DNA of 64,000 bases from assembly GCA_977020255.1 (NCBI GenBank), contig CDROCS010002991.1, positions 248,001 to 312,000 on the forward strand, read 5' to 3'. Below the pieces are notes generated by a model that searched no databases, was not told where the DNA came from, and saw nothing but the letters and a program-made list of their open reading frames with translations. The stretch comes from Obrimoposthia wandeli (lineage: Eukaryota). Position 1 is the first letter of the stretch, and each line of letters opens with the position of its first letter. This document shows, piece after piece, positions 5,107 to 58,235 of this stretch. The translations under genes were made by a program, and so were the position numbers.

Positions 5107-5591
5107 ATGAAACTCGTAAATATAAATTATAAAGGTAGAATAGAAGATGATGTTTTGTACTTACCATTCAATGAATGGAAGCCGAGAAAATATGTGAAAA
5201 GATTTGACAATTTCACAGTTGTTATTTTCCCATATGTCAGTTTTTTTATTTTATTTTCATATAAATTCTTTTAGGAAGTTGCAGTGTTATGGGATGCAAA
5301 ATACCTTTGCTTGAGATCGATTTACCATTTGGAATTCGAATCACTGCAATACAAGCAATCACATTTTCGGCTAATCTTGGGAAACAAATAAATCTTTTTA
5401 AAACTGCAGAGAAAATGAAAGAAGAATGCATGTTTGAACCAGAAATTTTTCCTGCTCTCAGTTATTTGAGTTTTAAACCTATATGTGTAAATATATTTTC
5501 CAGTGGTAAAGTTATGATATTGGGATTGAAAGATTTCGATTATCCAGACTTTGTTGATTTGATTTTAGAAAATATATCTTATTACATCTAG
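5107..5591 (+). CDS. TBP-like protein (family B copy), two exons, splice donor possibly damaged
   Basis: Exon 1 MKLVNINYKG...TVVIFPY; exon 2 (from 5275) GSCSVMGCK...MFEPEIFPAL...VNIFSSGKVMILGLK. The intron lies at the same position as in 31602-32092. The GTCAGT donor at 5236 is 1 nt out of frame; a weak donor at 5240 would restore the frame. Confidence 0.75.
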
Positions 5592-8099: not shown

Positions 8100-10002
8100 T
8101 ACGGAGTACTTTGATATTTTACTAAATTTTGATTATTGATTTATATTTTAATTCGTTATAAACAAGGGGATTTGCTACATATTTGGGTAATTATGCAAGA
8201 ATATATCATAGACTTTGAGGCTTTCATTAACTGAAATGGAGATTATATTATAAAAGAATTATGTATTATGGATATATGCGACGTTTCTCATCCTTTGCAT
8301 TTCATATTTCATATATATATCTTTTTACGTTCAAATTCACTACCTTCTTGGCTTTTATCTGATTTAACTTTTAAATCAAATTAACAACGTCAGGTAAAAC
8401 ATTATCTAGTTTTATTAAGTCCATGCTTCTTAAAAGTTGGTATTAATTTATTATCCTTAGATGAAGGTAGTCCTTTCCTAATGTTGATACAAATCGCCCG
8501 AGTCTCTTCAAAAAAGTAAAGGCAAATCTACCTAATGTTCTAAGCCAGCTGTATCATTATTGTTTACCAACAAAATATGGTAATTCTCCTTGTTGGCTTT
8601 GACTATAATCTTCAATTATTGCCGGCTTCGCCATTTCGCTTTAGGTCCGATAACTCAATCATTTGGAATCAGTGAGTAAATTCGAATTGATAAGTGTTTA
8701 ACAACTAAAGTGAATAATATATTTTAAAGTAAAAACAAGTAATTTGAATTGATACGTGGATAAGCATTTGAAGGGATTAACATATTTTCAAGAAATAAAA
8801 TTGATAATATATTAGTTAAGGTAATTTAACTGATAACGTATTGAAAGGTAAAAGTAATCCGAATAAAGGATTAGCATAGAACGCATAAGAAGTTGTGCGA
8901 GAAAAAGTAAAAAGTTTCACCCTACTTCCTGTGAAGTGTTTGCGTATAGCTCTAGTGTATATCCGTTTACGAATACTAGTACACTGTTGTGATATGTTTT
9001 CATTACACTCTCTCTTTCTCTTTGTGTTGTCATTTTGTTTTATGTGTGCACATGTTGTGATTTTGTTGCAATTATTGCAATTATGTATTAATAATAATGA
9101 TTGCAATTTTATGGATTATAATAATGTAATTAGTAGCCTCGCTACATAAAAGATTTGAATGGAAAGTAGTTTTAAAAATTATCTATAAAATAAATCAATT
9201 TTGTACAAGATCTTGTCTTCTCAATTCAAATCCCTCAATTGCATAACTTCAATAAATTGGCGCCTGAACAAACGAAAAAGAAACGAAACTCAATCCAACT
9301 CTAATCAACTCTCAATCTAACTCTCGTCCACTCTCAATCCAACTCTCGTCAACTTTCAATACAACAACCCTCTACAACGTACCGAACAAATCAATTACCA
9401 ATCTCCTTCTCACTACAATTTGGTGCCAAAAGCAATCTACAACCAAACAATCCAACCACTCTAACATCGTTCCGCAACTTCTAATAACTACTCACGGTGG
9501 GAACAACTTCTGACGGTGGGAATTACTTCTGACGATGGGAATCACAACCCTCTATATCACAACATTTGGTTAAATGTTTTATTATTAACTGTATTAGTAT
9601 TTCTTAACTGTACTAGACACTTCTACATACAACAATTCTTATCACCAACAATCAAAATACAACACAAATGCCAAAAACACAACCACCAACCATCACACAC
9701 ATTAAGTCTCCACAATACTTTGCTGATGAAAGCAACAATCCAACTGATTGGATAAATTTAACACATAATACTTTAACATCCACAAACAAACACACCAACA
9801 TAGAGATCACAACACACATCATACGCAAGCTGCCCGCTGCCTAATCAGACTGCAGTCAGCCCAATGACATTCTAAGCCACAAACACCCCACGAATGAGTT
9901 AATTAGGCACATCAACTAAAATCGAGGAAACGTGACAAAAAACGCAATCGAGCAATTACTCAATCTAATTACGAGGATCTAGTTTCAAATAGAAACCCCA
10001 AC
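8100..10002 (+). mobile_element. LTR-retrotransposon 5' region relic with primer-binding-site-like TGGCGCC at 9258
   Basis: aataaat-TGGCGCCTGAAC is followed by low-complexity ACA-rich sequence similar to 21480-22000 (-), and ends in the shared structured motif at 9971-10002. Boundaries approximate. Confidence 0.35.
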
Positions 10003-30205: not shown

Positions 30206-30766
30206 AGAAGTGTAAAGTGTCGGTTCTAAAACAATAGCACACAAAGCCCCCCCCCCCGAACAAGGCACAAGGAACAAAGCACATCTGAAATTTGTTTAGT
30301 CATACAGATGTGCTTTGTTCCTTGTGCCTTGTTCGGGGGGGGGCTTTGTGTGCTATTGTTTTAGAACCGACACTTTACGTCTCGAAATTTGTTTGGTCTT
30401 ATGCGTCACTTACGATTATGTAGGTTAATATTTTGTAACATTAAGTATATAGTTCAAAAATTTAAAAATTTAAAATTTAAAAATTTAAAATTTAAAATTA
30501 AAAAAATTAAAAAATTAAATATGAAAATTAAAAATTTAAATTTTAATTCAAATTAAATATGAAAATTAAAATTTTAATTTGAAAATTAAATATGAAAATT
30601 AAAAATTAAAATTTTGAAATTAAACACAATTGACCGTCCCAAATTTTATTTGCAACTATTTAATTTACTTAGTACTGCGACCTCATTCCAGGAGTTAGAC
30701 TGCCCCGCATAACCGGACAGCTATCGCAGTTTTATCTTAAGAAACGTTATTGTTTATAGTAGGAGT
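30206..30766 (+). repeat. Left TIR, containing a terminal palindrome (30212-30378) and AT-rich heptamer repeats (30455-30615)
   Basis: Reverse complement of 44718-45250 on both sides of the assembly gap. Confidence 0.92.
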
Positions 30767-30822
30767 CTATATTTATATAATGAATAAAGCAAAGTAACAT
30801 CGATAAATATATATTAGTACAA

Positions 30823-31473
30823 TTATAAGCGAACTTGTCCATCAGTAATTTTCCAGATTGGTTTATGAAGACCTGTACAGTTGATTTTGTATCCCTGTAT
30901 TGAAATGACGATCATCCACTTGAGTCCAGTTCCCATATTGTCAACATTAAAGTCGTGATCTCGCTTGAAAAGATTAGGATCAGCTCGAATTATTATATGA
31001 TTCCCAACTATGATGTTGAGATGCATCGACTCAAAAGTTTTGTTAAGATCATCAATATCTGACGGATTTAATCTATGTATCTTGAAATCGTATTTTGACT
31101 TATTCAGAGCCACCGGAAACATGAATCCATATATGATTGGAGTCTTCAAAAAATTCATTTGCCAGTTATAAAACATAACCGGCTTGGTGTACTTCAAATC
31201 GTTAGACTCAAATATTACATCTGATGGTTTATTGTTGAACGGTTTCTTATGTTTGGGTGTAGAGACTATATCATCAATAAAGAGATCCTCATTTGTTGCT
31301 TGCTTCTCAATCTTGATAATCTTGGTTTGTTTATGGTTGTTGCTTGTCATAGTTTGCTTCTTTGGTTTTGATATAAAAACTACATCATCATCATCGGTAT
31401 CCACATCTGTGTCTGTAAGCCTTGTTGGTGGTGGCTTCTCGAACTTAAGAGATTTAGTTTGTTTAGAGTTCAT
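30823..31473 (-). CDS. ORF X, 216 aa, unknown (possible OB-fold ssDNA-binding protein)
   Basis: Intact ORF. Acidic DDDDVVFI segment in a disordered N-terminus; conserved C-terminal domain shared with 3831-4241. Confidence 0.7.
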   Translation of the reverse strand: MNSKQTKSLKFEKPPPTRLTDTDVDTDDDDVVFISKPKKQTMTSNNHKQTKIIKIEKQATNEDLFIDDIVSTPKHKKPFNNKPSDVIFESNDLKYTKPVMFYNWQMNFLKTPIIYGFMFPVALNKSKYDFKIHRLNPSDIDDLNKTFESMHLNIIVGNHIIIRADPNLFKRDHDFNVDNMGTGLKWMIVISIQGYKINCTGLHKPIWKITDGQVRL

Positions 31474-31601
31474 ATCAAAATAATGAATTCTATACCAAAA
31501 GTGGTAGCTTATATATATATATATATCATACTCGATTCTGATTGGATAATCTTTAGCTTAAAAATTTATATATAGATTGGGTTATTTCCATCAATTCAAT
31601 C

Positions 31602-32092
31602 ATGAATCTTGCAAATATTAATTATAAAGGTAAAGTTAAAGGAGACATCAGTCACTTACCCTTCAAAACCGGGAAACCATGTCAGTACGTGCACAGGTGT
31701 AAGGATTATACCCTTATAATCTTCCGTTCAGGTATGTTTTTATGTTAGTTAGTTAGTTATTATTATTAGGAGCATGCAGGATAATGGGTTGCAAGAAACC
31801 TATTACTACAACTTTGCTCAAGTGTCCATTTAGAATAAAGATTGATCGTATTCAATCAGTAACGGTTACTGTCGATTTAGGTAAGAAGGTGAACCTATAC
31901 AAGTTGTCTCAAAAGTGTGGAGCTGCGTGCATGTTCGAACCTGAGTTGTTTCCTGCTTTAAGGTTTACAAAACACAATCCTCTGTGCGTCAACATATTTG
32001 CAAGCGGGAAAGTGGTCATACTCGGTCTCAAGGATTTGGATTATCACTTTGATGTGACTTTGATAATAACTGATATTTTACTTTTGATATAA
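31602..32092 (+). CDS. TATA-binding-protein-like protein, about 150 aa, two exons (31602-31731, 31770-32092)
   Basis: Repeat 1 ...TLIIFRSGACRIMGCK versus TBP TALIFSSGKMVCTGAK; repeat 2 MFEPELFPAL...VNIFASGKVVILGLK versus TBP YEPELFPGL...LIFVSGKVVLTGAK. A 38-nt GT-AG intron restores the frame. Confidence 0.85.
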
Positions 32093-32133
32093 ACAATAAA
32101 TTTTAGTTGAATTTTATTCTTACATGATTTGAA

Positions 32134-33033
32134 ATGCTAGTTGATTATATACTTCATTATACAACTGTTGATGATGTTTTAGTTAGACGAAAAGTAGGTT
32201 ATTCTAGAATGAAAGTTTTACACTGGAAATATAGACGTGAAAGTGAAAGATTAAGATCATTAATTATAAATTTTAAAGGGAAACAATCTGTAAATGATTT
32301 AGCTAAAGCCGGATTTTATAAACATGATGATGATTCAACCGATAAAGTAAAATGTATATACTGTCAAGGTGCGTTATCCGAATGGGAATGGTATCTTAAA
32401 CCAATGAAGCAACATATGAAATTTTTTCCTACATGTCCATTTATTTTAAAGTTAAATGTTTCAAATGTACCAATAATTGAAACTATGAACAAGAAAATCG
32501 ATTTTGATACATCACCATTGATTGGAAAAGTACATGTATCAGATATTGATATAAAATTACCTGATATATGCTATTCAAACAGTTTAGGACCCTATAATGA
32601 GGCTAATGTTATTGAGAAAATCGAAACAGATTGTATAATTGAATATCCTTTGACTATCGAGAAATTCGATATGTTGATGGATACAAACCAAATCAGATAT
32701 TTGAAAAAGTTTTTCACAAAAGATAGAATAAAATCTGTTTTAAAATATAAAATGATGCGATATGGTGAATACAATTCACTATTTGAATTGCTTTGTGATT
32801 TATCTAATTTAGAAATGAAACCTGAGAAACAATATATAAATATACTTTCATACATTTTAAAGGTACCCGAATGTGTAGTATGTTTAAATAATCATATTGA
32901 AGTAGTATTTCTCCCTTGTGGACATGTAAATACATGTATATCATGTTCTAGAATGTTACATTCATGTCCAGTATGCAGATGTCTGATCGAACGGAGAGTA
33001 AGAAATGTAAAATTTCATGGTATAAACAATTGA
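32134..33033 (+). CDS. Inhibitor of apoptosis (one BIR + C-terminal RING)
   Basis: BIR: LAKAGFY...VKCIYCQGALSEWE....KQHMKFFPTCPF. RING: CVVC....EVVFLPCGH..TC..C....CPVCR. Confidence 0.92.
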   Translation: MLVDYILHYTTVDDVLVRRKVGYSRMKVLHWKYRRESERLRSLIINFKGKQSVNDLAKAGFYKHDDDSTDKVKCIYCQGALSEWEWYLKPMKQHMKFFPTCPFILKLNVSNVPIIETMNKKIDFDTSPLIGKVHVSDIDIKLPDICYSNSLGPYNEANVIEKIETDCIIEYPLTIEKFDMLMDTNQIRYLKKFFTKDRIKSVLKYKMMRYGEYNSLFELLCDLSNLEMKPEKQYINILSYILKVPECVVCLNNHIEVVFLPCGHVNTCISCSRMLHSCPVCRCLIERRVRNVKFHGINN

Positions 33034-33051
33034 AATTTATGAATTATATAA

Positions 33052-33318
33052 ATGGATAAAAACGATAAATTAGTTGATGATGCAGTCGAGGAAATTATAA
33101 ACGGAACAATAAATGGAGTTCAATACTTTTCTAGTTTTGATGGACTTTCTCGTAATAATATAAAGGAAATTGTTTGCACCCATGTCTATAGAGATATCAA
33201 ACGGATTAAGGATTTTGAAAAATTTGTTCAAATTAATCGTTCAAACATGATGTATATAACCTTTTCTGCATCAATTTTTAATTCTCTGTTGTTGTATATA
33301 TTAATAAAACGTATATAA
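33052..33318 (+). CDS. Small protein with C-terminal hydrophobic helix
   Basis: 88-aa ORF with a homolog at 5635-5916. Confidence 0.7.
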   Translation: MDKNDKLVDDAVEEIINGTINGVQYFSSFDGLSRNNIKEIVCTHVYRDIKRIKDFEKFVQINRSNMMYITFSASIFNSLLLYILIKRI

Positions 33319-33348
33319 ACAATCGTTTTTTTTGATTTATTATTATTG

Positions 33349-33996
33349 ATGATGATAAAACTTAAAAATAACGCGGTTTACCAAATAATAGGACCTAGTG
33401 GGAGTGGGAAAACACATTTTGTAACTAAATTACTTCAAAATAAAAACATGTTTAATCAAAAGTTTAGTAGAATATACTGGCATTACGGAGGTGTAGGTGA
33501 ATCTGGTCTAACACGAACAGAATTAGGTAAATTGAAGGGTATTCATTTTATTAATGGTTTTGATAATAAATGGTCTGAGAGGTTAAATTCAGGAGATGTC
33601 ATTGTAATTGATGATTTGTTTGATGAAGCAAATAAAGAGTCGGGTTTTAATAACCTGTTTACCAAAATAGCTAGACATAGAAATGTAACAGTGATTTTTA
33701 TCACTCAAAATCTCTTTCATCAAGGCGGTCAACACCGTACTCGGAATTTAAATGTACATTATCTAGTATTATTTAAAAATCCGCGAGATCAAACGGTTAT
33801 CGACTTTGTTGCCCGTCAAGCTTTCCCTTGTAATAAGCAATATTTGATTGACGCATTTCAAGATGCAACAACTAACCCTCATGGATACTTGTTTTTAGAT
33901 TTTACACAGGAATGTCCAGACGATTTACGCGTGAGAACCGATATTTTCAATAATGATTTTGTATATAAACAAAAGAAAAGCCTATCTACTTGTTAA
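33349..33996 (+). CDS. A32/FtsK-HerA-type packaging ATPase
   Basis: Walker A GPSGSGKT, Walker B VIVIDD, followed by ARHRN and FITQN. Confidence 0.92.
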   Translation: MMIKLKNNAVYQIIGPSGSGKTHFVTKLLQNKNMFNQKFSRIYWHYGGVGESGLTRTELGKLKGIHFINGFDNKWSERLNSGDVIVIDDLFDEANKESGFNNLFTKIARHRNVTVIFITQNLFHQGGQHRTRNLNVHYLVLFKNPRDQTVIDFVARQAFPCNKQYLIDAFQDATTNPHGYLFLDFTQECPDDLRVRTDIFNNDFVYKQKKSLSTC

Positions 33997-33998
33997 TC

Positions 33999-34310
33999 AT
34001 GTCATTTATGAAAGAAACAATGCCTAGTGGAGTTAGACCTAAATGGAGACCGGGTGATAAATTACACGCTAATGATAACAAATTGATGTTAAAGAAGAAT
34101 GCTCATATTAAAAATCTTATTAAATCAGTGCTTCATCGGCGTAAAGTAGTCGATGAATCATTAAAGAAATCGGTAAAGACAGTAAAGAGAAAACCTGTAA
34201 AAAAGAAACCATTAAAGAAGAAACCTGTTAAGAAAGCAGTTGGAAAGTCGGTTAAGAAGTCGGATAAAAAGCGTGTAAATAAACTAGTTGGTAAATGGAT
34301 TAAACTATAA
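33999..34310 (+). CDS. Lys-rich basic protein (candidate DNA-condensing core protein)
   Basis: KKSVKTVKRKPVKKKPLKKKPVKKAVGKSVKK, with histone-H1-tail-like composition. Confidence 0.6.
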   Translation: MSFMKETMPSGVRPKWRPGDKLHANDNKLMLKKNAHIKNLIKSVLHRRKVVDESLKKSVKTVKRKPVKKKPLKKKPVKKAVGKSVKKSDKKRVNKLVGKWIKL

Positions 34311-34341
34311 ACAATATTGCAAATAGTTTAATTCATTAAAC

Positions 34342-34671
34342 ATGTTATCAAAATCTATACTTCCCTACTTTCAGGCTTTAATCAAGGCTCCAAGCATATA
34401 TAGACAACGTATACTCAAGTCATTTCCACCCTTTGTTATAGATAAGTTGGTTGAAGTCTTGTTTAATATTACAAAAGGTACTGTAAAAATCGGTAATCAT
34501 AAACATAACCTTAGAAAACATCAAAAAGCTTTACTTGATTTAGTGAATACTAAAAGTAAAACTGGTAAACGTAGAGTAATTCTAAAACAAAAAGGTGGTT
34601 TTATCGGTGCATTAATACCTATAATTGCTACTTTAGTATCTCCTTTGATTGCAAAATTGATAAACTCATAA
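34342..34671 (+). CDS. Conserved Polinton small protein with an adenovirus pX-like C-terminus
   Basis: Ends QKGGFIGALIPIIATLV, resembling the GG-FLPALIPIIA C-terminus of adenovirus protein X. Confidence 0.7.
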   Translation: MLSKSILPYFQALIKAPSIYRQRILKSFPPFVIDKLVEVLFNITKGTVKIGNHKHNLRKHQKALLDLVNTKSKTGKRRVILKQKGGFIGALIPIIATLVSPLIAKLINS

Positions 34672-34722
34672 ACAAAATGGGTAATAACATACCAAACATC
34701 GATTTTAAATTCACTTGTTGTA

Positions 34723-35757
34723 ATGGAAACGATATGGTACGATCCCGAAAACCCAGCTGGGTACAGCGGCATTGGCAAACTATCATTAAAAAGTCAATCG
34801 ACTCAAAAGAAAACTCAGAAATGGCTGAGCAATCAGCTAGCATACAGTCTAAACAAGCCAATGAAGCGGAAGTTCCCGACTCGAGCATACAGAACAAGCG
34901 GTCCTAACGATTTATGGCAGGCCGATTTGATGGAAATGATACCATATGCAAGTATCAATGATGGTAACAAGTATATTTTAACATGTATTGACGTGTTTAC
35001 AAGGTATGCGCGTGTATTACCTGTAAAATCTAAATCAGGTAAGGATATAGAGGCTGCTCTAAGTATAATGACTGATAAAACTGTCTCCATACATGTGCAA
35101 ACTGATAAGGGTAAAGAGTTTTACAACAAAAATGTAGGTAGTTTATTTAAAAAATTAAATATTGAACATTACTCTGTAGTTTCACAATTCAAAGCTGCCC
35201 TAGTTGAAAGGTTTAATAGAACATTGAGAGATCGATTAAAAAGACATTTTATTGCACAAGGCAATAAAAGATGGGTTGACGTTTTACCAAAAGTAATGAC
35301 TTCATACAATCACAGTAAGCATAGAGGTTTAGACGGATTGAGACCTGTCGATATTAATGATAAAAATGCAATGGAAATTTGGTTGAGTCGTAATCAAGTC
35401 GATAAAGTTAATAAACCCAAACATAAGACTGGTGATTATGTTCGGATATCAAAGTTTAGTGGTAGCCCCTTTATTAAAAACTTTGATCAGAATTGGAGTG
35501 ATGAAGAGTTTAGGATAGAGAAAATAGACAAACGTGCAAATCCTGTAATGTACTCTATAGTTGATGATGACTGTAATGTAATAACAGGGAAATTTTATGA
35601 ACCTGAACTACAAGTAATTGATAAACCTACACTTTTCCGTATCCAAGAAGTCGTAAAATCTAAAGGCCGTAGTAAGAATAAACAATATCTCGTAAAGTGG
35701 CATGGATATTCTGAATCAACATGGATCAAAGCAAGCCAGATAGAGACTTCTATATGA
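34723..35757 (+). CDS. Retroviral-type (rve) DDE integrase with C-terminal chromodomain
   Basis: WQADL, QTDKGKEF and VERFNRTL catalytic motifs; KQYLVKWHGY...TW chromodomain. Confidence 0.95.
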   Translation: METIWYDPENPAGYSGIGKLSLKSQSTQKKTQKWLSNQLAYSLNKPMKRKFPTRAYRTSGPNDLWQADLMEMIPYASINDGNKYILTCIDVFTRYARVLPVKSKSGKDIEAALSIMTDKTVSIHVQTDKGKEFYNKNVGSLFKKLNIEHYSVVSQFKAALVERFNRTLRDRLKRHFIAQGNKRWVDVLPKVMTSYNHSKHRGLDGLRPVDINDKNAMEIWLSRNQVDKVNKPKHKTGDYVRISKFSGSPFIKNFDQNWSDEEFRIEKIDKRANPVMYSIVDDDCNVITGKFYEPELQVIDKPTLFRIQEVVKSKGRSKNKQYLVKWHGYSESTWIKASQIETSI

Positions 35758-36890
35758 TTTTACCGAGTAATAGTTGTCCGAAAACTCAACCTAATAATAT
35801 GGCTTCATTATTCACTGTAGATTGAGAGAATCCAATTACGTTAAATGGTAAATGGGAGGCGACATTAACTGAATTTACGTACACAAACACTCCTGTTATT
35901 TTAAATAAGGGCAGTGAAATTAATTATTCTATTAAATTCTCCAATCAACAGACTGATCAAATATCTTTATCAGTAATTCATACTCAAGTAGAAGTAGAAA
36001 AGAAAGAACCGCAATTGCATGGTGATAAATCAGAACCAAAAGTTATTAAAAAGACAATTAATAAAATATCAAAACTCACCGTCACGTCTAAAGATAAGAT
36101 TGCAAAGCTTTCTATTTCCTTAAGCACAGTTGGTGTAGGTATTGATAAAAAGGATAATGTTGTACTAATAAAATCCGTCAACAACAAAAAATTCTATATC
36201 AAGATGGATGCTGACGCTAAAAATGAATTAGGATTCATTTTCAATACATTAACTTCAGAAGGTTTCGAGTCTGATGATAAAGGAGTTTTACTTGGATCAA
36301 CGTCTATCAGACCTGATTGCAGTGCACATAATTTACAATATATGCATTATAAAACCGGTTCATACAACAAGAAAATTGTATTTACAGAAGATTTAAATAA
36401 TAATAATGTAAATGCATTAGTAGCATACATTAAATCTAAATGCGACGTCATATTTAAAAGATTTTATATTGATGATAATGATAAGCTAATAAAATTTGTA
36501 TTAAAGAATGGAATTGAGCATATTGGATTTGATCAACGTTTAATGTATGTATTAGGGTTAGATAAATCACGATTTACGGGCAACGGGTCTGGACTACCTC
36601 GATTAAATTACGAGTTTGATCACATGTACTTGTATTCTAGTCTGTGTGAACCTGTAAACGTTGGAGGTCAAATGATACCCTTATTAAAATCTATATGGTT
36701 AGATAAAAATAAAGCACCAGGAGACACGGTTAATATCGCAATATACAGACCCATGTATATCCCTTTAGCATCAAATGTAATCTCAAACATTGAAATTAAT
36801 ATTAGAAACGATGCAGGTGTTCCAATAAGTTTTTCCAACAATGCAAAAGTATCCCTTACCATACATGTCCGTTGTATAGATCAGGTATAA
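35754..36890 (+). CDS. Minor capsid (penton) protein with one in-frame TGA at 35823-35825
   Basis: MILPSNS...FTVD*ENPITLNGKWEATLTEF N-terminus is in frame with ORF 36015-36890, which has MYLYSSLCEP..VG...PLLK and PMYIP...IEINIR. The ATG overlaps the integrase stop (ATGA). Confidence 0.8.
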
Positions 36891-36926
36891 ACAATCTGTA
36901 TTCAAAAATAGTTGTCCATTACAGTT

Positions 36927-37334
36927 ATGAATATAATTGAGACATTTAGTGGACCTCAACAAGGTGGTGAATTACCATATTTTGTAGGTAAACAGTACGG
37001 TTCGGGATGGTTGAAAACATTGGGACGGTTAGCATTCCCTATACTGAAAAGATTAGGCCGTGTTGGAGTTAAAACAGTTCAAGATGTAATAATGAACAAC
37101 AAATCTGTGTTACCAATGCTTAAACAACATGCACTAGGGGAAGTTGCCGGAGCCATACCGGAGGCTAAGGAAGCTTTTGGTACAGTTGTTAAAATTATTA
37201 AAAATCGACGTAAACGTAAAGCAAGTGAAGCAGCACAAACGGTTGAACCCGAAACTAAAAAGCAAGAGGGTAGTGGTAGAAAGAAAGCATCTAGTATAAA
37301 CAAACGAAGAAAACAAGGTACAATATTTGCTTAA
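36927..37334 (+). CDS. Conserved Polinton core/cement protein with QxGG/QxGSG sites and an amphipathic helix (pVI-like by inference)
   Basis: QQGG..., QYGSG-WLKTLGRLAFPILKRLG, QEGSG, and a basic C-terminus. Homolog at 56942. Confidence 0.7.
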   Translation: MNIIETFSGPQQGGELPYFVGKQYGSGWLKTLGRLAFPILKRLGRVGVKTVQDVIMNNKSVLPMLKQHALGEVAGAIPEAKEAFGTVVKIIKNRRKRKASEAAQTVEPETKKQEGSGRKKASSINKRRKQGTIFA

Positions 37335-37336
37335 TA

Positions 37337-38560
37337 ATGGCTTGTGGTAAATCTGAATTATGTATTTTTGATCGAGCTTTGCCCCAGGTAGTTGTAAGTA
37401 ATGGTAGCTTTGAAGATATATATCCAACAAACAATATTACCGGAACAAGAACATCAGAGATTCTGTTTAAAATTCAAGGTTCAGATATTGAGTACTTAGA
37501 TTTGAATGATACCTTGTTGTTTGTGAAAATTAAAGTAACGAAAACTGATGGTACAGAAATAGCTGTTGCAGATAATGTGGTCCCATCAAATTTCTTGATG
37601 CATTCCCTATTTAAAAGCATAGATATAACAATGAATAATACTGTAGTAGAAACCCATCCTCAATATGCACAAAAAGCTATGATTGAAACCATACTAAACT
37701 ATAGCACAGACACTAAAGACACTTGTTTGTCGAGTATAGGTTATGATGATGATGATGATAAGCGTAAAGGTTGGGCTGCTCGCTCAAAAGAAATTGACTT
37801 GTGTGGGACTCTTTGATCTGATATTTTTGAGCAACCAAAGTATCTCTTACCTGGTGTGTCTATCATGGTAAGACTTGTACCTAATAAATCTATGTTTAGT
37901 CTGAACTACGGAACGACTCTATCGCGAATCATATTTATTGAAGCTAAACTTAAAGTCAGAAGAGTCAGAGTTGAGAATGATGTTTTAATGGGACATAATA
38001 TTGGTCTTGAATCTAGGAATGCTGTATATCCCTATACTCGCAGAAAGCTAATGTATCATACCTTAGCCATCGGTTCTACGAGTTTTTACAAGGATCAAGT
38101 GTTTGATGATGAACAATTGCCTAAATTTGTGTTGATTACGTTGCAAGCAGGTGAAAAACTTATCGGTAATGGTGCTACAGACTCTTCAACATTCGATCAT
38201 TCTAATGTTAACACTATCAGTCTTGCTAGAAACAGTGATTTTAACGAATCTTACAGTACAAACTTTGAAACAGGTGAAACCACCTTTGCATATGTCCAAT
38301 CTATCATTAGAAATATGGGTAATTTGGATAAGAATATAAACAATGGCGTATCACTGGATGAATTCAAAACCAAATATCCATTTTTCACGTTTGTTTTAGC
38401 CCCTGACTTTGATATCACGCAAAACCAATTAGCAAAACAGGGTAATTTACGCCTTGACATCAAGTTTCACAAGTCATTAACAGTCCCAACAAACGTACTG
38501 ATTTACGGGATTTTTGATTCTGAGTTTGAAATAACTAAAGGCCGACGTGTGATTGTATGA
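37337..38560 (+). CDS. Major capsid protein (double jelly-roll) with one in-frame TGA at 37814-37816
   Basis: ORFs 37337-37816 and 37856-38560 are in the same frame. Polinton MCP motifs: KSELCIFD...Q, YLDLNDTLL, LCG.L*SDIF.QPKYLLPGV, FDH.NV, GNLRLDIKF. Confidence 0.85.
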
Positions 38561-38937
38561 AGTGAGTTTTTAATTTATGTTTTAAGATTTTATTAACCCA
38601 AAGTACTGTTCAGGTGAATGAAATAACTAGTTTGCTGCTCGGACCGCGATTTAAGGGTGTATACCCGTTGGAAAAAATCCCAACATTAACGCCTGGGGGA
38701 TATATTGTCAATACACATACCTCAAATCTTCCTGGAGAACACTGGATTGCGTTATTCGTGAGACGGAATTCTGTACATGTGTATGACCCTCTTGGAGTAT
38801 ACTATCCGGGAAAACTTATCAAGCATGTAGAGTCTCAAGGAAAACATGTATATTACAACAAAATTCGTTCTCAAAACCCACTGACTACTAATTGCGGTCC
38901 ACTATGTATCTTATGGTTGTATGATCAAACTATATAA
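38557..38937 (+). CDS. Adenain-like cysteine protease, spliced (predicted exons 38557-38561 and 38604-38937)
   Basis: Catalytic motifs GEHW, YDPLG, Q....NCG..C. ORF 38614-38937 has no in-frame ATG; a 42-nt GTGAGT...AAG intron yields MNTVQVNEI. Confidence 0.85.
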
Positions 38938-39287
38938 ATGTCAAACCTTTTTATTTGTGTTGATTGGTAATAAAATTTGTATTCAAAATCGTATTTGTTT
39001 TATAAGCTTCAACTGTCCCATCGAAATTTAAAATTTATTTTTGAGTTTTGATAAATTAAAAAATAGATTTAAAATCTACTAATTAAGAGAAAATTAATGG
39101 TGTTAATTATTTTTAAAAATTTAAAGTTTAACGGTGTGAATTTCAGTTATGAAAAAATTCATAATTGATTGACCGTAATTAACCTTTATGATCACGTGTG
39201 TAGCAACTAGGGAATAAAGAGTCTTTATTACGCATTCCTAGTTTGTAAGTACACACGTGATGTGTGACGTGTACATCTAGGGCAGCA

Positions 39288-39328
39288 ACTACACTGATTG
39301 TGAACCATATATAAACAATCAGTGTAGT
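39288..39328 (+). promoter_or_regulatory. PolB promoter: TATATAAACAA flanked by a perfect 14-bp inverted repeat
   Basis: ACTACACTGATTGT (39288-39301) / ACAATCAGTGTAGT (39315-39328). Confidence 0.7.
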
Positions 39329-39405
39329 GTCATTTATCAATTTCATTCACAATTTCGAAAAGTAAGTATTTTTATTATTTTTATTTTTATTTAATTTTTT
39401 TTTAG

Positions 39406-42400
39406 ATGTCAAAAATTATTTTCGCGTACAATGCTAAGAAAAGATGGACGATGAAGCCTGTAGTGGCTGATGATGATGATGATGATGTCGACTTGGATGC
39501 GACACCTGTGAAGAAAGGTAATTTTGATTATTATTATTATTATTTTTAATTTAATTTAGCAATGCAGAGTGTCACACCACTGCCAATATCAATCGCACCA
39601 TGGCTTTCAACGCACCATGCTCCTACTAAGAAAAGAAGCCGAAAGCAGAAAATGTCAACAACAACAACAATATATGATGATGATGATGAAAAGAAGAAAA
39701 TGTCAAAAGTTTTTTTATCTCCTGAGAAATCTTCTCACTCTCAACTTCCTTCTTCTTCTTCATTTTCTCATTCTCATTCTCATTCTCCATATGATAATCA
39801 TTTATATAAACTTTTTGGGGATATAAGGGATATAAAATCTTATTCTCCCGACTGCGATAGCTGCCCGGTAACGCGGGGCAGTCTAACTCCTGGAATGGGG
39901 TCGCAGAATAAGTTAATTAAATCAAGAGGTTACCCCTTACTTTTTAAACCAGGAACACCTGTTGGGTCACCTGTTAATTCAGTAGAAAATTTCAACGTAA
40001 ATGAGATATACTCGGGTTTTGAAAATATCCCGTTTAAAAAATATTTTAATCAATTAAAGAAAGTAAAAAATCAAAATATTGATTTAAGTAAACTTAAAAC
40101 AGAAGGTAGGAAAGGTAAAAGATTTCGTCAGAAGCTGCGTAGATTGAGAAAACTACCAGCAGATATAACAATATTTGCAAATTTATTAGGGTCTTGCAAA
40201 CCCATTAATATTAGTCCAGGTCTGAAAATTACAGATCTGGCAAATAAATTATATGAAGTCTTTGAGACTGATCAAATTTATTTTAACCGTAATGGCATGC
40301 CCTTTGAAAGGGAAGCTATTATCGGTGATGTTTTACATGAGGGGGCTATTATCCATGTATACCCTAAACTTCGTGGAGGAAGTAACTTATGTACATTGTA
40401 CAAGTATTGCACAAACGTTAATCATGGAATAGAATGTCATAGTGTAATGCTTAAATATTATAAATTTAAAAGCGGTTTTATTTGTCCACATTGTGATGTG
40501 TTATATTGTATTGACTATCAAACATTTTATAATGATCATAAGGATCATCTGACGTATTTTAAGTCTAAAAAGTCAGCATACAAACGTAAAGTAATGAGAG
40601 TACCAACAATAGACAACAATAAAATAGCAAAAACTAATAATTTTACTGAAGAGTTTGATGTGGTAGACTCGTGGGAACCGGATAGTGTTGTAGAAATTGA
40701 TACTTATCCTGAAGTTGTAGAAATTATTGAGCCTTTAAACCCTAATGAAATCTTAAATAATAATAATATTGATGAACTTATAGATCAGGACGAGTTTATA
40801 ACAGAAAATGATTTTTTCGACTCACTCCTAATTATTACGGATGATGACTTTGATAATATTGTTACAATTAATTCAGATAATACATTAACTTTTAACAATC
40901 AAATAGGAGGTGCAATTCAATCAAACCTTGTTTTTGATGTTAGTGGATTAAACATGCTTAAACTATACATTAACGATACTATGCTAACTGAACTTACTAG
41001 CAGTATAGATGTGTTTGGTCCCTGTAAAATACAGTTTGGTGTTGAAACCGAATTTGTCAATAACGAGGGTCAACATAAAACATGGCATGTAAGCTGTAAA
41101 GCAAATATTTTTGAACAAGATTTTATCACTACAAGAACAGTTGAGCTCAACAATAAAATTGAAATTTATAAGGATATGAGTTCGGGATGGTCAGTATTTA
41201 AAATTCTGTTGGTATCCTTTAAATTTACCGCACTTTCAAACGTAGCAGGATCATCATTTATAAAAACCCCGGTTGCGCTTGCTAAAACACTATCTATAGT
41301 GAACGTAAATAATACTGATGATCAGTGTTTTAAATACGCTGTTCTCAGTATCCTACACTATAAAGATTTCAATCGAAACAGACAAAGAGTTGAAAACTAT
41401 AATGATTATTTAAATGAACTTATATGTGAGCCTGGTCCTATGAGGATAGACGGTATCAAGGCGTTTGAAAAACTCAATAATATAGCGATAACAGTATTCT
41501 CCTATAAACCTACAAAGGTAGAGCCTCATAGTAGTCATCTAGTGTTTAAAAACCCAGATGTTAATGTTATTTATAGAACGAGTCTTAAACAGTGCGAAAA
41601 AGTAGTAAACTTGTTGCTGTTGGAACAGAGCGGTAATTATCACTATACAGGGATTACAAACCTGAATATACTTTTAAATACTCAAAAATATAATGTGCGT
41701 CTCTTTTGGTGTGAGAAATGTCTTTTTGGATTTCGAACCACGATTTCATATGACAAACACAGGGCACATTGTAATATTAATACAGATTTAACAACCTTGT
41801 TTACAATGCCTAAAGAGATCAAGTGTCAATTTTCCGACTGGTCTAAATCTATTGCGCCACCATTTGTTGTATATGCCGACTTTGAGTCAATACTCGAGCC
41901 ACATAATACTTTCAAACACATTCATAAACCAATATCTATAGGGATGATTTTGAAAAACAACACTAATAATTCAATACAATATTTCAGTTATTACGGTCTG
42001 CAGTGTGCTAAACACTTTGTAGATAAATTAACTGAGTTGATAAATGGTGAAGTGGCAGATTTTTGGGTAAATAGTATTAATGTTCCTATGGTTTTTACTA
42101 ATAATGACATGTTAAACTTTAGAGATTGCACTAATTGCTATCTTTGTAAAAAATTAAACGATCGTATGGTTAGAGATCATGATCATATCACGGGTAAATA
42201 CTTGGGTGCGGCATGCAACAAATGCAATTTAAGTCGCAAGTTTGCAAAGAGACCGGTTTTACCTGTGGTGTTTCATAACCTTATGGGTTATGATATACAT
42301 CATATTTTAAAATATGCCGACTTGAAAGGTAAATCCTTTTCAATTATCCCTAAATCAAGTGAAAAGTTCATGTCCCTCCGTATAGAGATGAAGAGGGGGA

Positions 42401-44193
42401 CATTGAAATTCATTGATTCATACCTTTTTACAACGTCAAGTCTTGAATCCTTAGTTTCATACTTGCCAAGTTGCCCTTATACTACACAATACCTAAACCC
42501 TAATATTGCAACAAGTAAGGCGGTATTTCCATATGAATATATTAGTGGTGTTGATAGGCTTATGGAGACGCAGTTACCCGCTAAATCTGAGTTTCCTTCT
42601 CGAGTCACTGATCAACAATATAATGAAGCCCTAATGATGTGGACCGTATTAGGGTGTAATACTATTAAAGACTACATGCTTGAGTATATGAAACTTGACG
42701 TGTATCTCTTATGTGATGTTTTTGAGGCCTTTAGACAGAAAGTAAGGGATGATGATAATCTAGAGGCGCTCAATTTCTTTAGTATCCCTGGTCTCAGTTG
42801 GGCTAGCGCATTAAAAACATTAGAGTATGATGTGGATTTATTGCATGATCCCGAAATGTATAACATCTTTGAGGCAGGGATACGGGGAGGGATGACTTTC
42901 ATCAATAAACATTACGTTAAAACAACAGATGAAACATTCCTCCTATATATTGACATAAATAACTTATATGGCTGGGCCTTGAGTCAACCGTTACCACATA
43001 CGGATTTTACATGGGTATATGACGGTTTTGAAGCGATAATTGAGCTTATAACTGAGAGGGATATTCACGGTAATATGCAGGACTTGAGTCTTAAAGAACA
43101 TGGATACTTGTTGGAAATTGATTTAGGCATACCCATCAGTATTCATGATAAACTTGATGACTTACCGATTGCGCCTAATAGAGAAATCCCTCCCGGCTCA
43201 AAAGCTTCAAAGCTGTTGATGACCCATGAGGATAAAAATAATTACATCATACACTCACAACTACTACAATTTTACTTGTTTCTGGGTGCAGAAATTAAAC
43301 AAGTGCATAGAGCAATAAAGTTTCATCAAGCTCCTATATTTAAAACATATGTTGATATCAATAGCCGGAAACGGGCAGAGGGTACTACTACATTTGATAA
43401 AGAGTTTTATAAACTCAAAAATAATTCAATATATGGTAAGACAGTGGAAAATCTTAAAAAGCGTAAAGATATCCGTCTTACCAAGAATGATCGTCAGTTT
43501 ACTAAACTTGTTTCAAGCCCCTGGTTTAAGAAGCATACCCAAATAACCGACAATCTCAATCTTTTATTTATGCAAAAGAAAGAAATTTGTCTGGATCGCC
43601 CATCATATATTGGTCAAGCTGTGTTGGACTTATCTAAACTACGTATGTACCAACTACAGTATAGTGATCTTGACCGGTATCGTAAGCAATATCATTGTGA
43701 TATCAACATAGTTGCAATGGATACAGACTCGTTTTTCTTAGAGTGTAAGCATATAGATAAAGATGTCCCCTTAAAACAAATGATTAAAGATCAGATGTTA
43801 GATACGAGTAATTACCCGATCACACATGAGTTATTTAACGATTCTCATCGAAATGTGATTGGAAAGTTTAAAGATGAAAGCAAGGGGACAGTGCTTTATG
43901 ATGAATGGGTATTTCTGAAACCTAAATGCTACTCATTGAAAACGAGTATGAGGGCTAAGGGTATCTCCCTTAAACAAACCGAAATCAGACATGAGCATTA
44001 CATAAAGTGTTATGTTGATGATGAAATTATAACTGCCGGTCAGACACGTATTTTATCTCGCAATCATCAATTATTTACAATGTATAATGATAAAATTGCG
44101 TTAAGGTGTTATGACGATAAAAGGGTTTGGCTTGAGAAAAACAAATCCGTCGCATATGGACACTATAGTCTAAAATCTGGGGTAACCTCTTGA
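39406..44193 (+). CDS. polB: Protein-primed family B DNA polymerase polyprotein (Ubl, Zn finger, vOTU, Exo with EndoVII insert, Pol)
   Basis: Extra exon 39406-39517 splices in frame to 39560. Motifs YADFES, FHNLMGYD, YMKLDV, RGG, YIDINNLY, KLKNNSIYGK, DTDS. CYLC..VRDHDH.TG..GAAC..CN insert; vOTU DQCF...HY. Confidence 0.95.
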
Positions 44194-44204
44194 AAGTATT
44201 AACT

Positions 44205-44398
44205 AATATCCTCTTATTTTTAATGTGATAGTATGTATCTTTTTAATGCAATAGTATGTATATATTTTTAATGCTATAGTATGTATATATTTTTATTGAT
44301 GTTTATTTTTAATACATTGTATGTATCATAACCATGTCTTGACTTCCTACTAGCTACTCATTGGATAATTTCATTGGATAATTTCATTGGATAATTTT
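44205..44398. repeat. Short tandem repeats after polB (3 x ~24 bp ttttaatg..atagtatgtat; 3 x cattggataattt)
   Basis: Visible directly in the sequence. Confidence 0.75.
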
Positions 44399-44455
44399 AA
44401 CAAATTCTCTATAAATATAAACACATTTCAATCAACCAATTTCTCATTATTTCAA

Positions 44456-44695
44456 ATGACTACTTCTAAAGAAAAATTGCAAGCTCTCTATGATAACCTG
44501 AGCCCTACCTTGATGGCCCAGTATACTGAAAAGTACTTTAGCTTATTTGTTGCACCAGAACTTTTTGTCTCAAGGATTGAAGAACTTTATATGTATCACC
44601 TGTTTAATGGAGACTTTAAACCTAAAGTTGCAACAATCATTAAAATAGAAGAAGAAGAAAGCATGGATTGTGACAATGAATATAATTATGTATAA
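44456..44695 (+). CDS. Hypothetical 79-aa protein at the right end of the element
   Basis: First ATG at 44456, with TATAAACAC 40 nt upstream. Acidic C-terminus. Confidence 0.55.
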   Translation: MTTSKEKLQALYDNLSPTLMAQYTEKYFSLFVAPELFVSRIEELYMYHLFNGDFKPKVATIIKIEEEESMDCDNEYNYV

Positions 44696-44717
44696 ACATA
44701 GACTTTTTTTTTACTAA

Positions 44718-45250
44718 ACTCCTACTATAAACAATAACGTTTCTTATGATAAAAACTGCGATAGCTGTCCGGTTATGCGGGGCAGTCTAACTCCTGGAAT
44801 GAGGTCGCAGTACTAAGTAAATTAAATAGTTGCAAATAAAAATTTGGGACGGTCAATTGTGTTTAATTTCAAAATTTTAATNNNNNNNNNNNNNNNNNNN
44901 NNNNNNNNNNNNNNNNNNNNNNNNNNNNNNNNNNNNNNNNNNNNNNNNNNNNNNNNNNNNNNNNNNNNNNNNNNNNNNNNNNNNNNNNNNNNNNNNNNNN
45001 NNNNNNNNNNNNGTTACAAAATATTAACCTACATAATCGTAAGTGACGCATAAGACCAAACAAATTTCGAGACGTAAAGTGTCGGTTCTAAAACAATAGC
45101 ACACAAAGCCCCCCCCCCCCGAACAAGGCACAAGGAACAAAGCACATCTGTATGACTAAACAAATTTCAGATGTGCTTTGTTCCTTGTGCCTTGTTCGGG
45201 GGGGGGGGGCTTTGTGTGCTATTGTTTTAGAACCGACACTTTACACTTCT
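44718..45250 (-). repeat. Right TIR with terminal palindrome (45074-45244)
   Basis: Reverse complement of 30206-30766, interrupted by an N gap. Confidence 0.92.
44882..45012. other. Assembly gap inside the right TIR
   Basis: A run of N. It corresponds to the AT-rich heptamer repeats of the left TIR (about 30440-30604). Confidence 0.98.
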
Positions 45251-56141: not shown

Positions 56142-58235
56142 AGTAGGTGGACGTGTCCGGTTTAATCCACTCCGTTTGAGGGGAAGGGGGTACCACTGTT
56201 CTTTAAATCCGTGTGTATGAAGTGAAATTTCGTGCATATTGTCCTGTCTAATCCCCCCGACTAACCCCTTACAAGAGGAGGGGGAGGAGTACCCCACATT
56301 TTTTGTGTTATTATGAGTGAAATTTCGTGCATGTGTGCATGAATTTCACATCCAACCTAAAAAGTGATTAAAGAACACAGTAATCCATTTTGAACCCATC
56401 GACTTATCGTAGACGAGATTTCAGATATTAGTTTTGTATGAGTAAATTAGTAAATAGATAGTGAAGTGCATTGTAGTAATTTTATAATGAAGGAATTTGG
56501 TAAAATTAAAAAAATGGTAACTTGACGTTTACAGCAAAGAACAATATAAAACGGGTTTCCTTTGATTATGAACTCGCTAAAACCCTTGGTTTAACAGCAA
56601 ATACCTTTGAAACACATGCAGTAAAAACCATAAAAGCTAAAAATCATGCAAAAATGTTAAATTATATTAATCAGTTATATATTTATACTAGTTTGATGGA
56701 ACCAACGCTTGTAAGAGGACTATGAGTATCACTTTTAAGAACAATATAGATATCTCAAAGTCAAACTAAAATTGGAGAAGTTCCTATATTGGGAAGTTTC
56801 GTATAGATCAGCCGATGTGTCTTCCAGTTGCTCTCTTTTCTATAAACAATATTGAAATAAATATTAGAGATGATTCTGGACAATTTATGAATTTCACATA
56901 TGGAGCCAAGACAAATTTAACAATACATTAAAGAAAAGGAAATGGCGAATACGGCAATAATTGAAGCTTATAGTCAAAGCCAGCAAGATGATGAATTACC
57001 ATATTTTGTTGATAAACAATATGGATCCGGCTGGTTTAGAACATTAGGTAGATTTTCCATTCCTCCTTTGAAGAGACTCGGGCGATTTGTATCAAAATTA
57101 AGAAAGGATTACCCTTCATCTAAGGATTATAAATTAATACCAACTTTTAAGAAGAATGTATCTTATGAACTTGATAATGTTCTTCCAGACGTTGCTAATT
57201 TAATTAGGAAAGGTTAATCAAGTAAAAGTTAAGAAGGTAAAGGATTTCAACGTAAACAGAAACAAAATATTACTATAAACAAACGTAAGAAAGTCAAAGG
57301 AACAATATTTTAAAAATGAGTTGCGCCAAAACTGAATTGTGTATTTTTGATAAACCTCTTCCACAAGTTGTTGTAGACAATTCTTCCTTTAAAGAGAAAT
57401 TTCTAGTTAAGTCAGTTTCTGGAACCACTTTAACAGATTTATAATTATTTATTAATGGTTCCAATAGTGATTATTTAAATATTGAAATATACTTTGCTTT
57501 ATGTTCAAATAAAAGTAACAAATCGGGATGGTACTGATTTAGCAAAAAATGCCGATGTGACACCTGTAAATTATCTCTTTAATACTTTATTTAATGATAC
57601 CATTGTTACTCTTAATAATGTCAAAATTTAAGATGGAAATTCTTCCTATGCTCATAAAGCTTTGATTGAAAGTCTATTGAATTATAGTACTGATACTCAA
57701 AATAATAATTTGGTAACCATTGGTTATGATAAAACGGCTGCAACTCGCAAAGAATGCATTGCAGGTTCTAAAGCTTACGAAATGTGTGGGTCTTTGAGAT
57801 TGAATTTCTTTGAATAACCTAAATATTTAATTCCCGGTGTTAATGTACATCTTCGTTTGAAACGTAATAAATATAATTTTTCTTTGATAAGCACAGACGT
57901 TTTAAAACCTAGACTTGATATTTTGGATGCAAAATTGTATGTTTGAAGAGTTAAAACCGAGCAATCACTTTTAATGACAAATAATATAGGAATGAAAAAA
58001 ACAATGCTTGTTATCCTATTAGAGAAACTAAACTTATAACCCACTCTTTAGGTACGGGTACACAAGCTTTTAATAAAGATCAAAATTTTGGTGATGTAAG
58101 ATACCCGAAATTCGTTTTAATTTCATTTCAAAAATCTGCAAAGTTTTTAGGAAATTATACGACAAACGTAGCACAGTTTGTTAATCTAAATGTGGGTTCA
58201 GCAACACTTTCAAAAAATAGCGATTACAAGTAAGA
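56142..58235 (+). mobile_element. Internally deleted, decayed family B Polinton (terminus, penton C-terminus, core protein, MCP)
   Basis: AGTAGGTGGACGTGTCCGG terminus; LYIYTSLMEP and INNIEINIRDD (penton); ELPYFVDKQYGSGWFRTLGR (core); MSCAKTELCIFD (MCP, ATG 57316). Multiple stops and frameshifts. Confidence 0.85.

What the first reader, a model, noticed from the sequence alone, without database searches (positions are those of the whole stretch)
40165..41643. Ubiquitin-like domain with intact LRGG inside the PolB polyprotein, upstream of an intact vOTU
Seen: a 72-aa segment (40165-40380) ITIFANLL...IIHVYPKLRGG aligns with ubiquitin (MQIFVKTL...LHLVLRLRGG). It is followed by a Cys/His-rich finger and, further on, DQCF (Cys 41326) and HY (His 41641). 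Established: Polinton pPolBs carry a vOTU proposed to process the polyprotein; DUBs cut after LRGG, which also fits the adenain consensus; viral Ub fusions act as cleavage signals in pestiviruses. Inference: a built-in Ubl cleavage cassette that releases the TP/Pol part with a defined N-terminus, and possibly a conjugatable Ubl. Together with the RING E3 and a clan-CE protease, the element would hold a compact ubiquitin toolkit.
Basis: partly seen in the sequence, partly recalled or inferred. Interest (0 to 1): 0.78.

Follow-up and report, generated by a model that had tools for sequence, protein, structure and literature searches.

The report
Ubiquitin-like cut linker in Polinton polymerase
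A very abundant virus-like jumping element in an animal genome carries a diverged, predicted ubiquitin-shaped domain ending in ubiquitin's own cut signal inside its DNA polymerase protein, a piece that none of the relatives examined has and that likely serves to cut a long front section off the polymerase precursor rather than to tag other proteins.

Summary
Residues 202-273 of the polymerase frame of an intact-ended, roughly 1,000-copy Polinton form a diverged ubiquitin-like (Ubl) domain ending in LRGG. An unbiased search hit a Pfam-ubiquitin protein (E 9e-4), and an alignment-guided model gave a beta-grasp fold (partly circular). vOTU Cys 41326 and His 41641 are correct.

The Ubl is internal, at residues 240-311 of a predicted spliced protein. 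It was not found in 120 listed homologues or five sister families of this genome, so it looks like a family-specific capture.

A cut after LRGG would free finger-linker-TP-vOTU-Pol, the form with which sister polymerases begin. The terminal protein (TP) has its own flanking Gly motifs 174 residues or more downstream. The TP/vOTU junction of homologues itself resembles the ubiquitin tail (L[KR]G[GS] in 23 of 105, background 0.3%), which makes the vOTU the likeliest cutter.

Conjugation is unlikely (I44N, R42Y, R72K; no E1 or E2 in the element). No cleavage was shown.

The scan had already noted the spliced finger leader (same genome) and ubiquitin-Gag fusions (another genome), but not this Ubl.

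The parts
30206..45250 (.). Polinton/Maverick (adintovirus-like) element, 5'-AG...CT-3', 6-bp target duplication CAAAGG, long terminal inverted repeats
   Evidence: genes for packaging ATPase, integrase, capsid proteins, adenain, pPolB
39406..39517 (+). predicted first coding exon of the polymerase gene (ATG 39406; acidic and basic), preceded by a predicted intron 39362-39405
   Evidence: GT..AG sites; length varies among copies but keeps phase in 34 of 36; no RNA data
39518..39559 (+). predicted 42-nt intron joining that exon in frame to the long frame
39562..44193 (+). pPolB long open frame, 1543 aa (about 1581 aa with the predicted exon)
39560..40164 (+). low-complexity then basic leader upstream of the Ubl (basic patch 40102-40164)
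   Evidence: shared variants in aa 116-201 are 11 synonymous to 6 non-synonymous, p 1e-4; length changes keep frame in 29 of 35 copies
39851..39906 (+). 56-nt GC-rich structured repeat inside the leader's coding frame; two more copies lie in the terminal repeats; function unexplained
   Evidence: no Rfam or tRNA hit
40165..40380 (+). diverged ubiquitin-like domain, aa 202-273, ending LRGG (40369-40380)
40381..40596 (+). Cys/His finger, the module near the start of sister pPolB frames
40597..40899 (+). acidic linker
   Evidence: sequence; no sign of constraint, 0 synonymous to 11 non-synonymous shared variants
40900..40911 (+). QIGG, predicted maturation-protease site in front of the terminal protein
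   Evidence: like QKGG, QQGG, QYGSG and QEGSG in the element's small core proteins
40912..41238 (+). terminal protein domain with predicted priming Ser541 (41182-41184)
   Evidence: Ser in 104 of 110; TP criteria from 10.1101/2024.03.18.585575 section 6
41239..41253 (+). TP/vOTU junction NVAGS, predicted vOTU cut site; homologues carry a ubiquitin-tail-like motif here
   Evidence: L[KR]G[GS] 23 of 105 vs 0.3%; [LIMV]xG 74 of 105 vs 11%
41254..41691 (+). vOTU protease domain, Cys589 (41326) and His694 (41641) intact
   Evidence: 12 synonymous to 8 non-synonymous shared variants, p 1e-4
41866..44193 (+). exonuclease and polymerase domains (with an endonuclease VII-like insert)
   Evidence: motifs; Pfam; homologues
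38566..38937 (+). adenain-like (clan CE) protease frame with His, Asp, Gln and Cys motifs; no ATG at its 5' end, so probably spliced
   Evidence: Peptidase_C5 E 0.0075, below the curated cut-off
32134..33033 (+). IAP-like gene (BIR + RING)

Best explanation
The segment is a captured, diverged domain with a predicted ubiquitin fold that likely acts as a cleavable linker inside the Polinton polymerase precursor, so that a cut after LRGG would split it into a 311-aa leader protein ending in Ubl-GG and a finger-TP-vOTU-polymerase chain like that of Ubl-less sister families.

Shown: the domain, its position, its copy number, its absence from the relatives examined, and intact vOTU residues.

Inferred: splicing of the leader; the cut itself; the cutter. 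The cutter is most likely the element's own vOTU (about 45% given a cut), whose predicted site at the TP junction resembles the ubiquitin tail in homologues; then host DUBs (30%); then adenain (25%). Later cuts at QIGG (likely adenain) and at the TP/vOTU junction (likely vOTU) would free the terminal protein. The effect would be two proteins from one mRNA, like ubiquitin-ribosomal fusions and pestivirus ubiquitin inserts.
For: Ubl homology and fold. LRGG sits exactly at the domain end and directly before the finger. In five sister families the finger lies at or near the start of an exon, with no Ubl. The leader is coding in the same frame. The Ubl shows modest purifying selection (5 synonymous to 4 non-synonymous shared variants, p 0.028; singletons neutral-like, 7 to 17). 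The junction motif resembles the ubiquitin tail. In the same genome, LTR retrotransposons place Ubl-L[RK]GG directly before Gag, verified by Pfam for one family. Precedents: vOTU proposed to cut at the TP junction (10.1101/2024.03.18.585575, passages); adenain has DUB activity (PMC4584293, passages); ubiquitin inserts in BVDV (PMC13517609, passages).
Against: No cleavage, RNA or protein data. The loss of I44, R42 and R72 would weaken recognition by host DUBs and possibly by an OTU fold. This element's own junction (NVAGS) is a poor ubiquitin-tail mimic, and its predicted adenain sites have Gln rather than Leu at P4. No diverged Ubl-bearing subfamily was found, so long-term conservation of LRGG is untested. 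Its invariance in 45 of 45 copies is uninformative because the copies were picked for it. The selection signal rests on 9 variants. The unguided fold model was inconclusive.
Confidence: 0.58

Rival explanations
1. The Ubl is an uncut integral domain (type II Ubl) that sets the stability, proteasome targeting or partner binding of the polymerase precursor; LRGG is a leftover of a recent capture.
For: Nematode Maverick cargo proteins (WASP, KRMA) carry N-terminal Ubl domains, suggested to regulate abundance (10.1101/2022.07.12.499685, passages). The Ubl body has diverged at the DUB-binding surfaces. Burro polyproteins hold a SUMO-like domain of unknown role (PMC6431247, passage).
Against: The body has drifted to about 23% identity with ubiquitin while LRGG is perfect, which is hard to explain for an unused tail. 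The tail also sits at the point where sister polymerases begin.
Confidence: 0.22
2. After release, the leader-Ubl is a conjugatable modifier, charged by host E1 and ligated with help from the element's RING protein.
For: Intact LRGG; RING-bearing IAP gene and two DUB-type proteases in the same element.
Against: I44N, R42Y, R72K (roles in E1 binding recalled); a 240-aa extension; no E1 or E2 gene found in the element; the IAP is a usual accessory gene.
Confidence: 0.07
3. The resemblance is a coincidence or a neutral passenger: a host-derived scrap kept only because the frame must stay open.
For: No Pfam or PDB sequence hit; tail-less similarity to host Ubls is matched by one unrelated window; found in a single young family only.
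Against: Unbiased library hit to a ubiquitin-family protein over the whole domain; 13 of 14 core hydrophobic positions kept by alignment (core positions recalled); synonymous excess.
Confidence: 0.13

Closest known systems
Polinton/alpha-adintovirus pPolB with TP-vOTU-Exo-Palm architecture (10.1101/2024.03.18.585575 = PMC11161782, passages and sections 5-6; PMC8502044, passages)
   Same: TP with priming Ser, active vOTU and polymerase in one chain; cut predicted between TP and vOTU; integrase, ATPase, capsids, adenain, IAP accessory gene.
   Different: Extra 311-aa predicted spliced leader ending in a Ubl-LRGG, then a Cys/His finger. No Ubl is mentioned in the passages read, and 'ubiquitin' occurs 0 times at word start in the preprint's main text.
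Ubiquitin and ubiquitin-like inserts of cytopathic BVDV (PMC13517609, passages) and ubiquitin-ribosomal fusions
   Same: Internal ubiquitin-type unit ending in GG directly before a downstream viral protein.
   Different: Those inserts are near-host sequence in an RNA virus and are cut by host enzymes (recalled). This one is about 23% identical to ubiquitin, fixed in about 1,000 copies of a DNA element that carries its own DUB-type proteases.
Ubl domains of nematode Maverick cargo (WASP proteases, KRMA kinases; 10.1101/2022.07.12.499685, passages)
   Same: Diverged Ubl carried by a Maverick.
   Different: Those are N-terminal domains of cargo genes, with no cleavage reported in the passages read. 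This one is internal in the core polymerase and ends in LRGG.
Ubl-Gag fusions of LTR retrotransposons in the same genome (L042-L045, L120-L139; similar to scan note e1-8073826) and the SUMO-like domain of Burro (PMC6431247, passage)
   Same: Met-less internal Ubl with a GG tail in front of a core mobile-element protein.
   Different: The retrotransposon Ubls stay close to ubiquitin (strong Pfam hits); the Polinton Ubl is far more diverged, and no donor could be assigned.

Membership tests
Ubiquitin-like (beta-grasp) domain | beta-grasp fold | tested here: met
   Alignment-guided model pLDDT 80.5, TM about 0.8, Z 12, rmsd 1.4-2.1 over 71-75 aa (partly circular). The unguided model had the right element order but was inconclusive.
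Ubiquitin-like (beta-grasp) domain | sequence homology to a ubiquitin-family member | tested here: met
   P0008, E 8.9e-4 in 1.84 billion proteins; P0008 has PF00240 at E 8.5e-26.
Pfam ubiquitin family PF00240 | score above the curated cut-off | tested here: not met
   No hit at E up to 10 for the 72-aa segment.
Type I (conjugatable) Ubl modifier | C-terminal diglycine exposed by processing | tested here: inconclusive
   LRGG is present; processing not shown.
Type I (conjugatable) Ubl modifier | E1-binding surface (I44 patch, R42, R72) of ubiquitin | tested here: not met
   N, Y and K at these aligned positions; the residue roles are recalled.
Type I (conjugatable) Ubl modifier | E1 charging and conjugation | not testable with these tools
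   Needs an assay.
Polinton/Maverick | terminal inverted repeats with 5'-AG...CT-3' and a 6-bp target duplication | tested here: met
   (the feature itself is recalled)
Polinton/Maverick | pPolB, retroviral-type integrase, packaging ATPase, adenain, capsid proteins | tested here: met
   Capsid and protease hits are weak, and the major capsid gene of this copy carries an in-frame stop.
Active vOTU of pPolB | catalytic Cys and His | tested here: met
   Cys589 108 of 110, His694 106 of 110
Active vOTU of pPolB | protease activity on the polyprotein | not testable with these tools
   Only proposed in the literature read.

The most novel reading that the evidence does not exclude
This Polinton family has evolved a private ubiquitin-protease pair. 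Its Ubl surface has drifted away from host recognition and is cut only by the element's own vOTU. The vOTU's ancestral self-cut site in Polinton polymerases is a ubiquitin-tail mimic. The released leader-Ubl is a separate functional nuclear protein, at the extreme a virus-encoded modifier. The domain would then be a natural built-in substrate with which the untested vOTU-processing hypothesis for all Polintons can be assayed.
Probability: 0.22. Interest if true: 0.78.

Novelty: new variant of a known kind. Interest (0 to 1): 0.5.

Why it matters
How Polinton polymerase precursors are processed has been proposed but, in the papers read, not shown. A folded Ubl with LRGG inside the precursor, and a ubiquitin-tail-like motif at the TP/vOTU junction of many homologues, give concrete, mappable cut sites and so a simple assay for vOTU activity and specificity. 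With the Ubl-Gag fusions of retrotransposons in the same genome, it suggests that unrelated mobile elements of one host repeatedly recruited ubiquitin as a polyprotein separator. Its reach is limited: one young family, with no activity shown.

Tried and rejected
Searches that found no Ubl or no relatives of it:
- Pfam and PDB sequence searches: no ubiquitin hit.
- Word-based homologue searches for the Ubl region: none among 848-2701 aa proteins or 126-403 aa proteins; other lengths not searched.
- Viral contigs: nothing for the Ubl-finger query or for P0136.
- The ESM Atlas gave no answer.
- Ubl survey of relatives: no hit in the 120 listed (of 164) homologues or their listed cluster members (best iE 0.5), 44 metagenome/viral loci, or 60 sister-family loci of this genome (best iE above 2). 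Limits: many gene calls and contigs lack upstream exons, and a profile without the query finds this Ubl itself only at iE 0.056, so other diverged Ubls could be missed.
- Pattern search for a diverged Ubl-bearing subfamily: of 15 matches, 13 read as point variants of the main family and 2 as unrelated.

Other tests without a result:
- No RNA holder listed. The four runs laid are contigs of one sample and showed no joints at the predicted introns; repeats were skipped there.
- Complex prediction, vOTU with Ubl: no answer (score 0.01, folded without alignments).
- Unguided fold searches were inconclusive.
- Donor of the Ubl: not assigned; the best host row was a retrotransposon Ubl.
- The 56-nt repeat as tRNA or a known RNA family: no hit. 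Twister and HDV layouts were compared by eye from memory and did not fit.

Rejected:
- That the LRGG cut defines the TP N-terminus.
- That the Ubl is N-terminal.
- That the three enzymes form a special toolkit.

Literature: no paper held 'protein-primed' + 'ubiquitin-like domain' + 'polinton', or 'bel pao' + 'ubiquitin-like' + 'gag' + 'retrotransposon'. Listings showed no Ubl-pPolB report. Supplements, Repbase entries and subscription papers were not seen and could mention such a domain.

Full report
Setting. The finding lies in a Polinton/Maverick element at 30206-45250, with terminal inverted repeats, AG...CT ends and a 6-bp target duplication. It encodes a TBP-like protein, a BIR-RING IAP, packaging ATPase, integrase, capsid proteins, an adenain-like protease and a 1543-aa pPolB frame, 39562-44193. 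The host genome is 1.35 Gb; earlier scan notes call it a probable planarian, which I did not test. The family is young and abundant: all 150 scored matches were 99-100% identical over the Ubl and finger, and a pattern for HVYPKLRGG matched 1,047 places against 0 for the reversed control.

Observation. Pfam and PDB sequence searches do not recognise it. An unbiased search of 1.84 billion proteins gave 8 hits. Five cover the finger, two are repetitive junk, and one (P0008, E 8.9e-4) covers the Ubl and is a tandem ubiquitin-domain protein. Global alignment to host ubiquitin and NEDD8 gave z 4.6 and 5.6, falling to 2.6 and 3.1 without LRGG. Without the tail, the segment scored z 9.7 against P0008 and 4.2 against 17 host rows, but one exonuclease window matched the host rows equally well. 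The unguided model (pLDDT 55) had beta-grasp element order with inconclusive fold searches. The model guided by 18 Ubl rows (pLDDT 80.5) matched ubiquitin, NEDD8 and Hub1 at TM about 0.8 and Z 12; this shows compatibility, not independent proof. I take the Ubl as real at about 87%.

Anatomy. The Ubl is internal. A predicted exon (ATG 39406) and a 42-nt intron join the long frame in phase, which puts the Ubl at residues 240-311. I examined 45 copies, 15 chosen as identical over the Ubl-finger and 30 by the pattern. Exon length varied from 100 to 133 nt and kept phase in 34 of 36 with anchors; one of the 34 is mis-anchored at 592. The next stretch varied from 255 to 376 nt and kept frame in 29 of 35. 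The spliced frame was open to LRGG in 17 of 35. Copies are related, so these are not independent events. Variants shared by two or more copies were synonymous-rich in aa 116-201 (11 to 6, p 1e-4), the Ubl (5 to 4, p 0.028) and the vOTU (12 to 8, p 1e-4). They were not significantly so in the TP (4 to 5), finger (2 to 3) or acidic linker (0 to 11), and aa 1-96 was too indel-rich to judge. After LRGG come the finger (aa 274-345), an acidic linker, QIGG (447-450), the TP with Ser541 (104 of 110), the junction NVAGS (560-564), the vOTU (Cys589, His694) and the polymerase.

Distribution. No Ubl was found in the 120 listed of 164 pPolB homologues, in 44 metagenome and viral loci, or in 60 loci from five sister families of this genome. 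In the sister families the finger follows an apparent splice acceptor, directly or after a short Ser/Thr/Gln-rich stretch. The closest outside homologues show the same break (P0136, P0150). The survey is limited by missing upstream exons and by profile sensitivity. No diverged Ubl-bearing subfamily turned up. The Ubl is therefore best read as a family-specific capture placed between leader and finger.

Mechanism. A cut after Gly273 would restore a finger-first polymerase precursor like that of the sister families and release a basic, low-complexity 311-aa protein ending in Ubl-GG (inferred). It would not define the TP N-terminus: a Gly motif lies just before the TP here (QIGG) and in 43 of 76 sequences counting this one (18% background). 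The motif resembles the sites in the element's small core proteins and the adenain consensus (recalled). At the TP/vOTU junction, where 10.1101/2024.03.18.585575 predicts the vOTU cut (passages and sections 5-6), homologues show L[KR]G[GS] in 23 of 105 and [LIMV]xG in 74 of 105 (0.3% and 11% background). This suggests a ubiquitin-tail preference and makes the vOTU the likeliest cutter of LRGG. Against that, this element's own junction is NVAGS. Host DUBs and adenain (DUB activity reviewed in PMC4584293, passages) remain possible. Conjugation is unlikely, given I44N, R42Y, R72K, K48M and K63E and no E1 or E2 in the element.

Comparison. The TP-vOTU-Pol core and IAP accessory genes are known. 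Ubl domains are known in nematode Maverick cargo and a SUMO-like domain in Burro polyproteins; ubiquitin-like inserts are known in BVDV. All were read as passages only, and PMC12721341 (passages) has no ubiquitin mention. I found no report of a Ubl in a pPolB; supplements and Repbase were not seen. In this genome LTR retrotransposons also place Ubl-GG before Gag, which I saw before reading the scan's note of a similar fusion in another genome. The scan had noted the spliced leader, finger and pre-polymerase protease site but nothing matching this Ubl.

Verdict. Observation confirmed; interpretation partly supported; new variant of a known kind. Cleavable linker 0.58, uncut regulatory Ubl 0.22, passenger or coincidence 0.13, conjugatable modifier 0.07. 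Interest 0.5.

Noticed in passing
window 39851-39906 (+), 44755-44810 (+), about 30675-30730 (-): A 56-nt GC-rich structured repeat occurs three times per element (3,021 exact matches to a 25-nt part in the genome): once inside the polymerase leader's coding frame, and once in each terminal repeat just downstream of the outermost genes, pointing outward. The internal copy differs from the terminal copies at 4 positions, is very constant among copies (0.55% per site), folds better than most shuffles (z -2.2 to -2.8), has no Rfam hit and was not found in sister-family loci. It could be an undescribed RNA 3'-end, ribozyme or DNA signal.
   Followed up: partly
homologues P0010-P0129, TP/vOTU junction: Polinton polymerases carry a ubiquitin-tail-like motif at the junction where the vOTU is predicted to cut (L[KR]G[GS] 23 of 105, L[KR]GG 7 of 105; backgrounds 0.3% and 0.1%). 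Not mentioned in the passages read.
   Followed up: partly
L042-L045, L120, L121, L123, L125-L136, L138, L139: About three families of LTR retrotransposons in this genome have Ubl-L[RK]GG fused directly before Gag; Pfam confirmed ubiquitin + DUF1759 for L042.
   Followed up: partly
L122, L124, L137: Host tandem arrays of diverged Ubl units, each interrupted by a short apparent intron just before the GG tail.
   Followed up: no
window 30212-30378 and 45074-45244: Near-perfect hairpins of about 170 nt just inside both element ends; already noted by the scan.
   Followed up: no
window 37814-37816: The major capsid gene of this copy is broken by an in-frame stop.
   Followed up: no
window 38555-38587: The adenain frame has no start codon and begins after an apparent splice acceptor next to the end of the capsid gene, so it is probably spliced.
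   Followed up: no
window 31784-32092 and 5289-5591: The element encodes a single-repeat TBP-like protein; a second such gene lies in a decayed related fragment.
   Followed up: no
window 56800-58230 and 8494-8595: Fragments of other Polinton copies (capsid and core-protein regions).
   Followed up: no
window 39908-39943 and 44172-44207: An imperfect inverted repeat (78% over 36 nt) brackets most of the polymerase frame; it may be chance.
   Followed up: no
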